Notes under the pieces: generated by a model | The model's database searches: none | What the model was told of the DNA's origin: nothing | The model's input: the letters and a program-made list of their open reading frames with translations, nothing else | Shown: one piece after another, positions 51,206 to 53,700 of the stretch | Layout of the letters: each line of letters starts with the position of its first letter | Numbering within the stretch: the first letter of the stretch is position 1 | Position numbers and translations under genes: made by a program | Virus record (IMG/VR): IMGVR_UViG_3300020183_000040 | Coordinates: 21,187 to 85,186 of that record | Strand: one strand, 5' to 3' | DNA: 64,000 bases | From: a virus

Positions 51206-51460
51206 ATGTACATACTAGTTGCCCCAGAGAGCGGTGGTATATATGCCGCAAGGGATATAGAACGCAAAAAGGTGGTGCAACTTTTTGTGCAGGAAGATGA
51301 TGCTATTCGGTATTGTAATATGCTTGTTGCAGAAGACTTTCGTGAAAATCTTGAAGTCGTAGAAGCCGAGGTTAGTACGGTGGTTGCAAATTGCAGGAAA
51401 TACGGTTATAATTATTGTATAATAGAGCCCAATCAACTACTAGTACCTCCTAAAGAATGA
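51206..51460 (+). CDS. Conserved hypothetical protein between gp47 and gp46
   Basis: Start revised to ATG 51206; LFVQEDDAIRY motif; ATGA overlap with gp46. Confidence 0.75.
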   Translation: MYILVAPESGGIYAARDIERKKVVQLFVQEDDAIRYCNMLVAEDFRENLEVVEAEVSTVVANCRKYGYNYCIIEPNQLLVPPKE

Positions 51461-53178
51461 TCACATTTGAAACTGTCCGTTGGAAAAATTTCCTTTCAAC
51501 AGGAAATACCTTTACAGAAATCGGATTACATGAATCTTCATCAACATTGATGATTGGTAGGAATGGTTCGGGTAAGTCTACCATCTTGGATGCGTTGTGT
51601 TTTGGTTTATTCAATAAACCATTTCGTAAAATCAATAAACCACAACTAGTAAATTCAATCAACGAAAAGGAATGTGTAGTTGAAATTGAATTTACAGCTT
51701 CTAATATCAAATATAAGATCGTGCGAGGTATCAAACCAGCTAAGTTTGAGGTGTATAAAGATGGTAAGTTACTTGATCAAGATGCAGCAACAAAAGATAC
51801 TCAAAAGTATCTTGAGCAGTCAATTCTAAAACTAAATTATAAGTCTTTCACTCAGGTAGTTATTCTTGGGAGTAGTACTTTTGTTCCCTTTATGCAACTG
51901 CCTGCTGCACATCGGAGAGAAGTTATTGAAGATCTTTTGGATATTGGAATCTTTTCTAATATGAATGTGATCCTAAAAGATCGTATCAATGTTCTCAAGC
52001 AAAAACAAATAGACTGTGAGCATATGATGAAACTTTGCTCAGAGAAAGTTGTAATGCAAAAGAAACATATTGATAGTATTGAGCAAATCAAAGAGGAGCG
52101 TCTTGGTGAAAAGGCACAAAAGATTTCTGCCAATAAAAATGAAATTCACAGGATCACTGGAGAACTTGGTAATCTCAAGCGGGATATTGAATCTAAAGCA
52201 ATCGACATCACAAAGAGAAAAGAGGTATCAGAAAAATTAGATAAACTCAAAGATGTACGTGCAAGAGTCAGTCAAAAACGTAATCTTGTTCGGAATGAAC
52301 TGAAGTTCTTTTTAGATAATGATGTTTGCCCAACATGCACCCAAAACATTACTCCAGAGTTCAAAGAACAAAAGAAAAAAAGTCTTGATGAGAAAGATAC
52401 TGAATATAAAGATGCAATAGATCAAATGGTATCTAAAGTTGATGTACTTGTAGAAGAACTTCATTCTCTTGAAGAGCAATCTAGAGAACTGCAAACTATG
52501 AGATCTATACACATTTCCCTTGAACGAGAGATCGTCAGGATGGAATTTGAGAATCTCAATATTGAAAAAGAGATTCAAGATCTACAAACTAACCAAACAA
52601 ATGTTGAAGTTGAAAAAACTGCATTGGTTGAATATTCAAAGGAACTTGAGTCAACGTCTATTGCTTGCTCTCAAGTAGATAAAGAATTTGATGAGTATCG
52701 AATTATTTCAAACCTTCTGAAAGATTCTGGAATCAAGAGTCGTATAATCAGAAAGTATATTCCAGTGTTCAATCAATTGATAAACAAGTATCTTCAAAGC
52801 ATGGATTTTTATGTGAACTTCTCTTTAGACGAGAACTTTGACGAAAAAATTATGTCTCGGTTTAGAGATGATTTTTCATACGCATCTTTTTCTGAGGGCG
52901 AAAAGCAAAAGATTGATCTGGCACTCTTGTTTACTTGGAGAGAAATTGCCAGAATGAAGAACAGTGTTTCCACAAATCTTTTGATTCTTGATGAAGTTTT
53001 TGATAGTTCTTTGGATGAGAGTGGCACACAAGAGTTGATGAAGATCTTGCGTAATCTTGGGAATGATGCTAATATATTTGTTATCTCCCACAAGGGAGAG
53101 ATTCTAGTTGATAAGTTCCTGAGGACTGCTATCTTTGAAAAAGTCAATGACTTTTCTAAAATGAAGTACGATGGATAA
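51457..53178 (+). CDS. gp46: Recombination ATPase gp46 (Rad50/SbcC-like)
   Basis: GRNGSGKST, CPTC zinc hook, FSEGEK signature, LILDEVFD and ISH motifs. Confidence 0.96.
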   Translation: MITFETVRWKNFLSTGNTFTEIGLHESSSTLMIGRNGSGKSTILDALCFGLFNKPFRKINKPQLVNSINEKECVVEIEFTASNIKYKIVRGIKPAKFEVYKDGKLLDQDAATKDTQKYLEQSILKLNYKSFTQVVILGSSTFVPFMQLPAAHRREVIEDLLDIGIFSNMNVILKDRINVLKQKQIDCEHMMKLCSEKVVMQKKHIDSIEQIKEERLGEKAQKISANKNEIHRITGELGNLKRDIESKAIDITKRKEVSEKLDKLKDVRARVSQKRNLVRNELKFFLDNDVCPTCTQNITPEFKEQKKKSLDEKDTEYKDAIDQMVSKVDVLVEELHSLEEQSRELQTMRSIHISLEREIVRMEFENLNIEKEIQDLQTNQTNVEVEKTALVEYSKELESTSIACSQVDKEFDEYRIISNLLKDSGIKSRIIRKYIPVFNQLINKYLQSMDFYVNFSLDENFDEKIMSRFRDDFSYASFSEGEKQKIDLALLFTWREIARMKNSVSTNLLILDEVFDSSLDESGTQELMKILRNLGNDANIFVISHKGEILVDKFLRTAIFEKVNDFSKMKYDG

Positions 53179-53187
53179 ATAACCCCT

Positions 53188-53275
53188 GGAGAGGTGGCCG
53201 AGTGGTTTATGGCAGCAGTCTTGAAAACTGCCGATGTGAAAGCATCCGTTGGTTCGAATCCTACCCTCTCCGCCA
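53188..53275 (+). tRNA. trnS: tRNA-Ser(TGA)
   Basis: GGAGAGG/CCTCTCC acceptor stem, GCAGT-CTTGAAA-ACTGC anticodon arm, long variable arm, GTTCGAATC, encoded CCA. Confidence 0.95.
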
Positions 53276-53349
53276 CGGAATGTAGCTCAGCTTGGTAGAG
53301 CACTCGCTTTGGGAGCGAGAAGTCGCAGGTTCGAATCCTGTCATTCCGA
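53276..53349 (+). tRNA. trnP: tRNA-Pro(TGG)
   Basis: CGGAATG/CATTCCG acceptor stem, CTCGC-TTTGGGA-GCGAG anticodon arm, GGTTCGAATCC. Confidence 0.95.
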
Positions 53350-53353
53350 CCTT

Positions 53354-53446
53354 GGGAGTGTAGCTCAATTGGCAGAGCGGAAAGCTTATACCTTTCGTAT
53401 ACGGCAGATTACCGTGCGGTTGGGGGTTCGAGTCCCTCCACTCCTA
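53354..53446 (+). tRNA. Atypical 93-nt tRNA-Ile(TAT) with an extra 17-nt arm
   Basis: GGGAGTG/CACTCCT acceptor stem, GCTC/GAGC D-stem, GAAAG-CTTATAC-CTTTC arm, extra TACGG-CAGATTA-CCGTG arm, GGGGG-TTCGAGT-CCCTC T-arm. Confidence 0.8.
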
Positions 53447-53447
53447 C

Positions 53448-53476
53448 TTGACAATCTAACATAAATACTCTATACT
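53448..53476 (+). promoter_or_regulatory. sigma70 promoter with a late-promoter-like ATAAATA in its spacer
   Basis: TTGACA-17nt-TATACT; ATAAATA at 53461-53467. Confidence 0.8.
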
Positions 53477-53499: not shown

Positions 53500-53700
53500 A
53501 TGGCACACTACAAACCATACTCTCCTGAGTGGCATCGTTATCGGTATTTGAAAGAAGCACTAGACAAGTATCTGGATGAATATATCGACAACGAAGTAAT
53601 TCTTGAAGACATCACTGATATTTTATCTGAACGCTCTGAAAAAGCATATGAGGAATTCAGCAGGGTGAATGAATTGGAATCACTGATCAATGCTAAATAA
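53500..53700 (+). CDS. Hypothetical protein
   Basis: Directly downstream of a strong promoter; YKPYSPEWHRYRYLKEALDKYL. Confidence 0.8.
   Translation: MAHYKPYSPEWHRYRYLKEALDKYLDEYIDNEVILEDITDILSERSEKAYEEFSRVNELESLINAK

What the first reader, a model, noticed from the sequence alone, without database searches (positions are those of the whole stretch)
53354..53446. tRNA with two anticodon-like arms (UAU, and GAU in the extra arm; both Ile)
Seen: a class-I body (7-bp acceptor, 4-bp D-stem, A73, canonical T-arm) containing arm 1 GAAAG-CT TAT AC-CTTTC (53380-96), a GTA linker, arm 2 TACGG-CA GAT TA-CCGTG (53400-16) with the same 5-bp/7-nt geometry, then a normal 5-nt variable loop CGGTT. Established: tRNA-Ile normally has no long arm; bacteria usually read AUA with lysidine-modified CAU rather than UAU; long-arm UAU tRNAs (nematode nev-tRNA, bacterial allo-tRNAs) can be charged with other amino acids. 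Inference: an anticodon-arm duplication, a recoding/mischarged tRNA, a processed insert, or a decoy resistant to host anticodon nucleases. Arm 2 lacks U33, so it may not decode.
Basis: partly seen in the sequence, partly recalled or inferred. Interest (0 to 1): 0.8.

Follow-up and report, generated by a model that had tools for sequence, protein, structure and literature searches.

The report
Phage isoleucine tRNA with spare GAU arm
This cyanophage gene is a real transfer RNA for the rare isoleucine codon AUA that carries a second, strongly conserved hairpin showing GAU, the ordinary isoleucine anticodon, a widespread design that I found in no paper and that may be how the host's charging enzyme accepts it.

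Summary
Window 53354-53446 (+) is a 93-nt tRNA, called by ARAGORN as tRNA-Ile(tat) and by Rfam tRNA at 56.5 bits. It has a canonical UAU anticodon arm, a 3-nt linker, a second 5-bp/7-nt hairpin with loop CAGATTA, then a class-I-like 5-nt variable loop.

It is not a decaying gene. A viral-contig scan that left arm 2 free gave 46 distinct long forms. In 44 aligned sequences, four of the five arm-2 pairs show changes on both sides.

In the ARAGORN survey, 69 of 71 distinct long tRNA(tat) carry GAT at loop positions 3-5, against 6 of about 146 other long tRNAs. With the anticodon left free, all 55 well-formed viral hits read TAT. The 30 bacterial hits read TAT (27) or GAT (3), never a non-Ile anticodon.

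New here: the arm-2 pair equivalent to 29-41 is C-G in 61 of 69, against 6 of 69 in arm 1. C29-G41 is a listed IleRS identity element.

Best reading, about 0.45: arm 1 decodes AUA, and arm 2 gives host IleRS the GAU it needs. Charging is untested.

This scan noted the same design before on other DNA. Eight literature searches found no description, but two papers on lactic-acid-bacterial tRNAIle(UAU) could not be read.

The parts
53135..53162 (+). promoter-like site (TTGAAA-16-TAAAAT) 26 nt upstream of the three-tRNA cluster
   Evidence: 10 of 12 consensus matches; a consensus match only, not shown to be used
53188..53275 (+). tRNA-Ser(UGA), an ordinary class II tRNA and first gene of the cluster
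   Evidence: the Ser-Pro pair is conserved in Synechococcus phages
53276..53351 (+). tRNA-Pro(UGG)
   Evidence: 70.6 bits
53354..53446 (+). 93-nt two-armed tRNA-Ile(UAU), with 7-bp acceptor, 4-bp D stem, 5-bp T stem, A73 and no encoded CCA
   Evidence: family covariation
53380..53396 (+). arm 1, the working anticodon arm: loop CTTATAC with U33, anticodon TAT at 53387-53389, and A37
   Evidence: all 5 pairs of this helix change on both sides in the family
53397..53399 (+). GTA linker between the two arms
   Evidence: GTA is the commonest linker, 30 of 69
53400..53416 (+). arm 2: 5-bp stem TACGG/CCGTG and 7-nt loop CAGATTA, with GAT at 53407-53409; the third pair from the loop is C-G
53417..53421 (+). 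class-I-like 5-nt variable loop CGGTT; its last T can form the A15-U48 Levitt pair
   Evidence: CGGTT follows arm 2 in 26 of 69; the Levitt pairing is inferred

Best explanation
SHOWN: this is a functional-looking phage tRNA gene, last of a Ser-Pro-Ile cluster in a T4-like cyanophage fragment. It belongs to a large family found in phages and in bacterial tRNA arrays. Arm 1 has every feature of a decoding anticodon arm and reads AUA. Arm 2 is kept by selection as a hairpin that always displays G-A-U on a stem with a C-G third pair.

INFERRED mechanism: ordinary bacterial IleRS reads G34, A35 and U36 and charges a UAU anticodon poorly. Arm 2 is a built-in copy of the tRNA-Ile(GAU) anticodon arm. 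It offers the enzyme's anticodon-binding domains the triplet they need, so the tRNA is loaded with isoleucine without TilS, while arm 1 does the decoding on the ribosome. The A at the second loop position of arm 2 would keep that arm from decoding.

How the five-way junction presents arm 2 to the enzyme is unknown. Confidence that this is a real tRNA with a selected GAU arm is about 0.95. Confidence in the IleRS-handle mechanism is about 0.45, and that is the figure given.
For: - It is a real tRNA.
- Arm 2 is under selection. Four of its five pairs show double changes and 90% of cells are paired. There are 19 distinct inner stems.
- GAT stands at loop positions 3-5 in 69 of 71 distinct long tRNA(tat). 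One further tRNA, miscalled Stop(tta) by ARAGORN, also has it. Only 5 of about 145 other long Leu/Ser/Tyr-type tRNAs in the same 1.59 Mb do.
- The scan that found most of these placed no constraint on arm 2.
- The arm is tied to Ile anticodons. With a free anticodon, 55 of 55 well-formed viral hits are TAT. The 30 bacterial hits are TAT 27 and GAT 3. None of 75 tRNA(cat) or 26 tRNA-Ile(gat) genes in the loci is long.
- The 29-41 equivalent is C-G in arm 2 in 61 of 69 (16 of 19 distinct stems). It is C-G in 6 of 69 arm-1 stems (5 of 29 distinct), 8 of 42 class-I UAU tRNAs, 12 of 23 phage Ile(GAU) tRNAs and 14 of 57 CAU tRNAs.
- C29-G41, G34, A35, U36, A38 and A73 are listed bacterial Ile identity elements (passages of PMC9976931).
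- E. coli IleRS gives tRNAIle2(UAU) 1.1% of the kcat/Km of the LAU form. The discriminating Trp is conserved in tilS-bearing species (passages of PMC3575796).
- IleRS1 and IleRS2 both have pockets for G34, A35 and U36 (passages of PMC13752280).
- The same loop occurs in phages of cyanobacteria, Acinetobacter and lactobacilli and in Acidobacteriota and Proteobacteria arrays. The partner must therefore be universal, and IleRS is.
- There is demand for the tRNA. The window is 38.5% G+C, with ATA at 7.0 per 1000 codons.
Against: - Nothing here shows charging, or any contact between arm 2 and IleRS.
- Arm 2 lacks two loop features of a true tRNA-Ile arm. Position 33 is A in 64 of 69, and position 37 is T in 46 of 69. 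t6A37 is reported as a strong determinant for bacterial-type IleRS.
- From textbook knowledge, class I synthetases approach a tRNA with the variable region facing solvent. An arm in the variable-arm position would not reach the anticodon-binding domain unless the junction stacks differently.
- Class-I tRNA(UAU) without the arm is about as common in the same viral scan: 50 loci against about 59. One such tRNA is in a phage of the same host genus (RB11-B). The arm is therefore not indispensable.
- Three bacterial members have GAT in both arms, where a handle would be redundant.
- All four carrier bacteria tested keep TilS.
- The sequences are related by descent, so counts overstate the number of independent events.
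- An earlier check within this scan priced the same reading at 13-42 in 100.
Confidence: 0.45

Rival explanations
1. Arm 2 serves another universal partner or an intramolecular role. It might be a tertiary or ribosome contact that stabilises the tRNA, or it might tighten decoding so that an unmodified U34 does not read AUG as Ile. Charging would then rely on arm 1 and A73.
For: - On E. coli ribosomes a tRNAIle(UAU) cannot tell AUA from AUG (abstract of PMC3575796), so there is a fidelity problem to solve.
- Arm 2 lacks U33 and mostly lacks A37, so it is not a perfect IleRS substrate mimic.
- Class-I UAU tRNAs exist in similar phages.
Against: - It gives no reason why exactly G-A-U, and a C-G at the 29-41 equivalent, should be kept.
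- It gives no reason why the arm occurs only with Ile anticodons.
- I found no complement to the loop elsewhere in the tRNA by eye; this was not tested formally.
Confidence: 0.25
2. It is a decoy or non-translational RNA. Arm 2 would soak up a host factor that targets the tRNA-Ile(GAU) anticodon loop, such as an anticodon nuclease, or the RNA would have a regulatory role.
For: - Phage tRNAs are known to counter anticodon nucleases (general knowledge, recalled).
- A at position 33 could make the loop uncleavable (speculation).
Against: - I know of no nuclease aimed at tRNA-Ile(GAU), and none surfaced in any search.
- The family also sits inside bacterial tRNA arrays among ordinary tRNAs.
- The whole cloverleaf, the T loop and A73 are conserved as in working tRNAs.
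Confidence: 0.1
3. It is a two-codon-set decoder. The RNA can stack either arm under the D stem, so one gene reads AUA through arm 1 and AUU/AUC through arm 2.
For: - Each arm is flanked on one side as a native anticodon arm: a single nucleotide 26 before arm 1 and a class-I variable loop after arm 2.
- A few members have a fully canonical loop CTGATAA in arm 2 (2 of 69). That is the commonest loop of phage tRNA-Ile(GAU), 15 of 23.
Against: - 64 of 69 arm-2 loops have A instead of the near-universal U33, and 46 of 69 have a pyrimidine at position 37.
- AUU and AUC are already read by abundant host tRNA.
Confidence: 0.05
4. It is a mischarged class II tRNA that inserts Leu or Ser at AUA, as reported in vitro for nematode nev-tRNAs and proposed for allo-tRNAs.
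For: - It has a long extra arm and A73. A73 and a large variable region are the listed bacterial Leu determinants.
- nev-tRNAIle(UAU) is leucylated in vitro (abstracts of PMC3333845 and PMC4300185).
Against: - The body is class I, with a 4-bp D stem and a full 5-nt variable loop after the arm.
- The discriminator is A73, not the G73 of Ser.
- The branch is 7/5, not 8/4 or 9/3.
- LeuRS and SerRS do not read arm-loop sequence (recalled), so a fixed GAU would be unexplained.
- Arm 1 is restricted to Ile anticodons.
Confidence: 0.05

Closest known systems
TilS-independent bacterial tRNA-Ile(UAU), e.g. Mycoplasma mobile tRNAIle2 (PMC3575796; abstract and passages read)
   Same: Both have a UAU anticodon that reads AUA without lysidine. 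Both face the same two problems: IleRS recognition of U34, and AUA/AUG discrimination.
   Different: In M. mobile the tRNA is class I and the enzyme changed (Arg865). Here the tRNA carries an extra GAU arm, and the hosts presumably keep an ordinary IleRS and TilS. TilS was found in 4 of 4 carrier bacteria.
Anticodon arm of the major tRNA-Ile(GAU)
   Same: Arm 2 has a 7-nt loop with G-A-U at positions 34-36, mostly A at 38, and C-G at 29-41. These match the listed Ile identity elements.
   Different: Arm 2 has A instead of U at position 33 and mostly U instead of A at 37. It sits in the variable region of another tRNA.
Class II tRNAs (Leu, Ser, Tyr), such as the neighbouring tRNA-Ser at 53188-53275
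   Same: Both are about 85-93 nt long, with a paired extra arm between the anticodon arm and the T arm.
   Different: The window's tRNA-Ser has a short arm flanked by single nucleotides. The Ile tRNA has a 3-nt linker, a 7-nt loop of fixed sequence and a complete 5-nt variable loop. GAT at that loop place occurs in about 5 of 145 class II tRNAs.
allo-tRNAs (PMC5389517; passages read) and nematode nev-tRNAs (PMC3333845; abstract only)
   Same: These are also long-armed tRNAs, and UAU is among their commonest anticodons. allo-tRNAs are also found in Acidobacteria.
   Different: allo-tRNAs have 8/4 or 9/3 branches, tRNASec-like D arms and G73/U73. nev-tRNAs are nematode class II bodies charged with Leu in vitro. 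Neither is described with a GAU loop.
E. coli thrS operator, a synthetase-binding RNA with two anticodon-arm mimics (passage of PMC9976931)
   Same: An RNA hairpin copies a cognate anticodon arm in order to be bound by the matching synthetase.
   Different: That element is an mRNA leader used for translational repression. It is not part of a tRNA and is not charged.

Membership tests
tRNA (Rfam RF00005) | Score above the curated gathering threshold, and a cloverleaf with 7-bp acceptor, D arm, anticodon arm and T arm | tested here: met
   56.5 bits against 29. ARAGORN calls it. All helices covary in 44 relatives.
tRNA-Ile(UAU), AUA decoder | 7-nt anticodon loop with U33, U34-A35-U36 and purine 37 | tested here: met
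   The loop is CTTATAC at 53385-53391.
tRNA-Ile(UAU), AUA decoder | Charged with isoleucine by IleRS | not testable with these tools
   This needs an aminoacylation assay. A73 and U12-A23 are present, but C4-G69 is not (A4-T69 in the window; C-G in 23 of 44 relatives).
tRNA-Ile(UAU), AUA decoder | Class I body with a 4-5 nt variable loop, as in the described M. mobile type | tested here: not met
   25 nt lie between arm 1 and the T stem.
Class II tRNA (Leu/Ser/Tyr) | Anticodon of Leu, Ser or Tyr, and for Ser a G73 discriminator | tested here: not met
   The anticodon is TAT and the discriminator is A73. A73 occurs in 45 of 46 distinct long forms.
Class II tRNA (Leu/Ser/Tyr) | Extra arm with a short loop of no fixed sequence, flanked by 1-2 nt | tested here: not met
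   The loop is 7 nt with a fixed GAT, the linker is 3 nt and the tail is 5 nt. Compare the window's own tRNA-Ser.
allo-tRNA (Mukai et al., PMC5389517) | 8/4 or 9/3 acceptor/T-stem branch, with mostly G73 or U73 | tested here: not met
   The branch is 7/5 with A73. The definition was read.
nev-tRNA (PMC3333845) | Nematode-specific class II tRNA, leucylated in vitro | tested here: not met
   This is a phage gene with a class I body. Only the paper's abstract was seen. Charging was not tested.
tRNA-Ile(GAU) anticodon arm (tested for arm 2 only) | G34-A35-U36, A38 and C29-G41 | tested here: met
   In the window the loop is CAGATTA and the third pair is C-G. In the family GAT occurs in 69 of 71, C-G in 61 of 69, and A at loop position 7 in 56 of 69.
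tRNA-Ile(GAU) anticodon arm (tested for arm 2 only) | U33 and A37 (the t6A site) | tested here: not met
   The window has A at loop position 2 and T at position 6. In the family these are A in 64 of 69 and T in 46 of 69.

The most novel reading that the evidence does not exclude
Arm 2 is a portable identity module. Host IleRS reads the GAU displayed on the extra arm instead of the true anticodon. Amino-acid identity and codon reading, which for isoleucine normally rest on the same three bases, would then be carried by two separate hairpins of one tRNA. That would be a natural way round the anticodon-based proofreading of the code. It would probably require the five-way junction to re-stack between charging and decoding.
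Probability: 0.4. Interest if true: 0.9.

Novelty: new variant of a known kind. Interest (0 to 1): 0.77.

Why it matters
For isoleucine the synthetase and the ribosome read the same three bases. That is why bacteria need lysidine (TilS) to read AUA. A tRNA that shows one triplet to the enzyme and another to the ribosome would be a third natural solution to the AUA problem, besides lysidine or agmatidine and the altered IleRS of Mycoplasma mobile. It would be one that a phage can carry into any host.

It would also be a ready-made design for engineering tRNAs whose anticodon can be changed without losing charging.

On the practical side, annotation pipelines label these genes inconsistently. 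In the records seen here the gene is unannotated in DSL-LC02 and Lpa804, and lies under a predicted protein gene in the Latilactobacillus phage. Cultured phage-host pairs exist in which the idea can be tested directly.

Tried and rejected
- **Single-sequence folding**. The z-score is -0.90 and the minimum-energy fold draws arm 2 differently. This is uninformative alone, so I relied on covariation.

- **Origin of the body**. For 70 family members I stripped both arms and looked for the nearest class-I tRNA body. The top hits were Lys(ctt) 14, Met(cat) 12, Asn(gtt) 11, Thr(tgt) 7, and Ile(gat) only 3. This is inconclusive, and I make no claim that the body derives from tRNA-Ile(GAU).

- **Recent duplication.** The two arms of the window's tRNA share only 3 of 7 loop letters and no stem similarity (read). 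There is no sign of a recent duplication.

- **TilS replacement**. TIGR02432 was found above its cut-off in 4 of 4 carrier bacterial genomes. The two-armed tRNA is therefore not their only AUA decoder, and I dropped that argument.

- **Expression**. All 13 RNA runs held only a small share of the words (0.05-0.08). I laid four of them.
  - Contigs of X2, X3 and X7, from three studies, carry the whole 93-nt gene ungapped with 2-3 other letters. No joint removes an arm.
  - These are assembled contigs from RNA libraries. They may contain DNA and come from relatives, so they do not show transcription, ends or charging.
  - X1 gave no cover of the Ile gene, which proves nothing.

- **Bacilli sample**. 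The pattern matched only the centre genome among 401 genomes of the class of G005. It was not found in those searched, which is a sample without names. This could not tell me whether Lactiplantibacillus plantarum's own tRNAIle(UAU) genes have the arm.

- **Literature.** Eight searches found no description of a tRNA(UAU) with a GAU-bearing extra arm.
  - I read passages of PMC5389517, PMC7609411, PMC9976931, PMC3575796, PMC10688831, PMC11571807, PMC11938285 and PMC13752280.
  - Two directly relevant papers are not held, and I saw only their titles in reference lists. They are Tomikawa et al. 2018, J Biochem 163:233, and Uesugi et al. 2022, FEBS J 289:4888, both on tRNAIle(UAU) in lactic acid bacteria. 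They may show or test such an arm.
The supplementary figures of PMC5389517 on 'irregular tRNAs' of Acidobacteria could bear on priority.

- **Not attempted.** I made no structure or complex prediction, because the tools take no RNA chain.

Full report
**What is in the window.**
The window is 64 kb of an 85,186-bp IMG/VR virus record estimated 48% complete. It is 38.5% G+C. Its tRNA-Ser/tRNA-Pro pair matches T4-like Synechococcus phages of the Kyanoviridae. The gene just upstream (51457-53178) is an SMC_N/AAA_23 ATPase.

ARAGORN finds three adjacent tRNA genes on the + strand: Ser(tga) 53188-53275, Pro(tgg) 53276-53351 and Ile(tat) 53354-53447. Rfam's tRNA model scores all three above its threshold. 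The third scores 56.5 bits and is aligned end to end, with a 21-nt insert in the variable region. A promoter-like site lies at 53135-53162, and a second one directly follows the cluster at 53448-53476.

It has a 7-bp acceptor stem starting with G-T and a 4-bp D stem. Then come arm 1 GAAAG-CTTATAC-CTTTC, linker GTA, arm 2 TACGG-CAGATTA-CCGTG, CGGTT, a canonical T arm, and A73 with no encoded CCA.

**Is it more than chance?**
On its own the sequence folds no better than shuffles. Relatives decide the matter. Two cultured Synechococcus phages, DSL-LC02 and SynMITS9220M01, have the same 93-nt gene at about 86% identity. Their arm-2 stem is TGCAC/GTGCG where the window has TACGG/CCGTG, which is three compensatory pairs around an identical loop. 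An Acinetobacter phage has an 88-nt version with loop CAGATAA.

I then scanned IMG/VR with a pattern that fixed only the D-stem 3' strand, the arm-1 loop and the T loop. Match lengths were bimodal: 38 nt, the ordinary class I form, in 50 loci, and 54-59 nt in about 59 loci.

The long class gave 46 distinct full-length sequences, all with 7 of 7 acceptor pairs. Nearly all have a 3-5 bp stem and a 7-nt loop of the form Y-W-G-A-T-N-N. The exceptions are:
- L079, with loop CGGACGG
- L103, with no hairpin
- L016, with one stem mismatch

On 44 aligned sequences, 97.2% of cells pair against 70.8% in shuffles (0 of 500). Sliding the partners drops pairing to 36-48%. Arm 2 has changes on both sides in 4 of 5 pairs. 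Three rows were left out: L021, which is identical to the window, plus L072 and L103. RNAalifold predicts the same five helices unaided.

**Is the GAU special, and is it tied to isoleucine?**
ARAGORN run over everything then fetched (177 sources, 1.59 Mb) called 1113 tRNAs.
- Among distinct long (84 nt or more) tRNA(tat), 69 of 71 have a hairpin with GAT at loop positions 3-5.
- Among about 146 other distinct long tRNAs (Leu, Ser, Tyr and oddities), 6 do.
- One of those 6, called 'Stop(tta)', is really a family member with arm-1 loop TTTATAC.
- None of 75 tRNA(cat) and none of 26 tRNA-Ile(gat) is long.

A second viral scan left the anticodon free but asked for Y-W-G-A-T in the insert. It gave 74 distinct cores. 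Of these, 55 pass a cloverleaf-plus-arm-2 filter and all 55 read TAT. The 19 that fail are 2 TAT and 17 others that are not this architecture.

A scan of one genome per bacterial species used a free anticodon and the loop CAGATTA. It gave 31 stretches, of which 30 are tRNA-like. Arm 1 reads TAT in 27 and GAT in 3, and never a non-Ile anticodon. These genes sit in tRNA arrays of 5 to 38 genes per 8 kb, except L185, which stands alone in its 8-kb locus. The arrays are mostly in Pyrinomonadaceae and Blastocatellia MAGs, and also in Sphingopyxis and Acidithiobacillus.

An earlier internal check in this scan had questioned the tie to UAU in bacteria. What I see is a tie to Ile anticodons, mostly UAU. 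This holds within patterns that require this family's D stem and T loop, so it is not a census.

**A new piece of evidence.**
The arm-2 base pair that corresponds to 29-41 of an anticodon stem, the third from the loop, was compared across tRNA sets:

| Set | C-G at 29-41 equivalent |
|---|---|
| Arm 2, distinct family members | 61 of 69 |
| Arm 2, distinct stems | 16 of 19 |
| Arm 1, distinct family members | 6 of 69 |
| Arm 1, distinct stems | 5 of 29 |
| Class I tRNA(UAU) | 8 of 42 |
| Phage tRNA-Ile(GAU) | 12 of 23 |
| tRNA(CAU) | 14 of 57 |

The neighbouring arm-2 pairs are more varied. The 2023 identity review lists C29-G41 among the bacterial isoleucine identity elements. The others are G34, A35, U36, A37, A38, A73, C4-G69 and U12-A23.

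Arm 2 therefore keeps G34, A35, U36, mostly A38 (56 of 69) and C29-G41. It does not keep U33 (A in 64 of 69) or A37 (T in 46 of 69).

**Mechanism.**
Three facts are established in print.
- E. coli IleRS charges a UAU version of tRNAIle2 at 1.1% of the efficiency of the lysidine form.
- The Trp that stacks on base 34 is conserved in tilS-bearing bacteria. M. mobile solved the problem by changing the enzyme.
- Both IleRS types have dedicated pockets for G34, A35 and U36, and anticodon variants are poor substrates.

A phage that wants to supply an AUA reader independent of TilS therefore has a charging problem. The simplest account of a hairpin that is conserved from cyanophages to Lactobacillus phages and acidobacterial arrays is that it is offered to IleRS. 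That hairpin always shows G-A-U on a C-G-bearing stem and travels only with Ile anticodons. Arm 1 has U33, UAU and A37 and does the decoding. The A at position 33 of arm 2 would keep that arm from acting as an anticodon.

The demand side fits. The phage is AT-rich, uses ATA at 7.0 per 1000 codons (10% of Ile codons), and its other two tRNAs also read A-ending codons.

I put this mechanism at about 0.45. The weaknesses are these:
- There are no charging data.
- A37 is missing from arm 2.
- An arm in the variable-region position should face away from a class I synthetase, unless the five-way junction stacks arm 2 under the D stem during charging.
- Class I UAU tRNAs are equally common in similar phages, including RB11-B on the same host genus.
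- Three bacterial members have GAU in both arms.
- TilS is kept in 4 of 4 carrier bacteria.

The flanks are ambiguous in an interesting way. Arm 1 follows nucleotide 26 directly, like a native anticodon arm. Arm 2 is followed by a complete class-I variable loop, like a native anticodon arm too.

**Comparison with known systems.**
It works like a TilS-independent tRNA-Ile(UAU), but it fails that group's class-I anatomy. It is not a class II Leu/Ser/Tyr tRNA, because the anticodon is wrong, the discriminator is A73, and the arm has a 7-nt sequence-specific loop, a 3-nt linker and a 5-nt tail. It is not an allo-tRNA, whose branch is 8/4 or 9/3 with G73/U73, nor a nev-tRNA.

The nearest precedent for an anticodon-arm mimic that recruits its synthetase is the E. 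coli thrS operator, which is an mRNA element.

**Novelty.**
Eight full-text searches and passages of eight papers gave no description of this layout. A 2026 paper on IleRS still speaks only of 'rare cases where tRNAIle UAU is present'. Two papers on tRNAIle(UAU) in lactic acid bacteria could not be read. This matters because Lactobacillus and Latilactobacillus phages carry the two-armed form.

This scan has noted the same design on other DNA: 73 notes in at least 66 genomes. My reading before seeing those notes was the same as theirs. They are not independent evidence.

**Verdict.**
It is a real, selected, widespread variant of tRNA-Ile(UAU) with a second, GAU-displaying arm. The IleRS-handle mechanism is the best available explanation, but it is untested.

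Noticed in passing
window 53448-53476: A near-consensus sigma-70-type promoter (TTGACA-17-TATACT, 11 of 12) starts two bases after the tRNA's discriminator. It lies 24 nt upstream of a 66-aa ORF (53500-53700) that has no Pfam match.
   Followed up: partly
L185:7859-7950, L199:1236-1331, L204:1602-1694 (Pyrinomonadaceae/Acidobacteriota MAGs): These two-armed tRNAs have GAT in arm 1 as well as arm 2. They sit in tRNA arrays, and in L204 the array also holds a tRNA-Ile(aat). They may be intermediates or revertants of the UAU form.
   Followed up: partly
L162:1202-1290 (IMG/VR contig): A tRNA-Pro(tgg) of 89 nt has a 20-nt variable region that contains CTGATAA but forms no clean hairpin of the family's type. 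It could be a different oddity or a degraded relative of the arm.
   Followed up: no
L147:5863-5953 and L159 (IMG/VR contigs): A 91-nt tRNA-like gene with a perfect acceptor stem and T arm. ARAGORN gives it a four-letter anticodon (gtag). Its anticodon stem seems to enclose a 25-nt loop holding a small hairpin and two TAGAT motifs.
   Followed up: no
L072:9815-9912 (IMG/VR contig): A 98-nt family member carries a further small GGAA-loop hairpin between arm 1 and arm 2, so the linker can accept insertions.
   Followed up: no
L003:1595-1669 and L001:1965-2039: In DSL-LC02 (two-armed form) and RB11-B (class I form), the tRNA(tat) gene is followed within a base or two by a tRNA(cat) gene. I did not test whether that is a Met tRNA or a TilS-dependent Ile2 tRNA.
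   Followed up: no
L208:395-485 (Latilactobacillus phage TMW 1.1393 P1) and L209:397-487 (Lactobacillus phage Lpa804): The two-armed tRNA is unannotated in both records, and in L208 it is overlapped by a predicted 'hypothetical protein' CDS. ARAGORN also calls a truncated-looking 68-nt tRNA-Ile(gat) right after it in L208.
   Followed up: partly
L079:524-612 (IMG/VR contig): This is the one family member whose arm-2 loop reads GAC instead of GAT (loop CGGACGG), with the stem intact.
   Followed up: no
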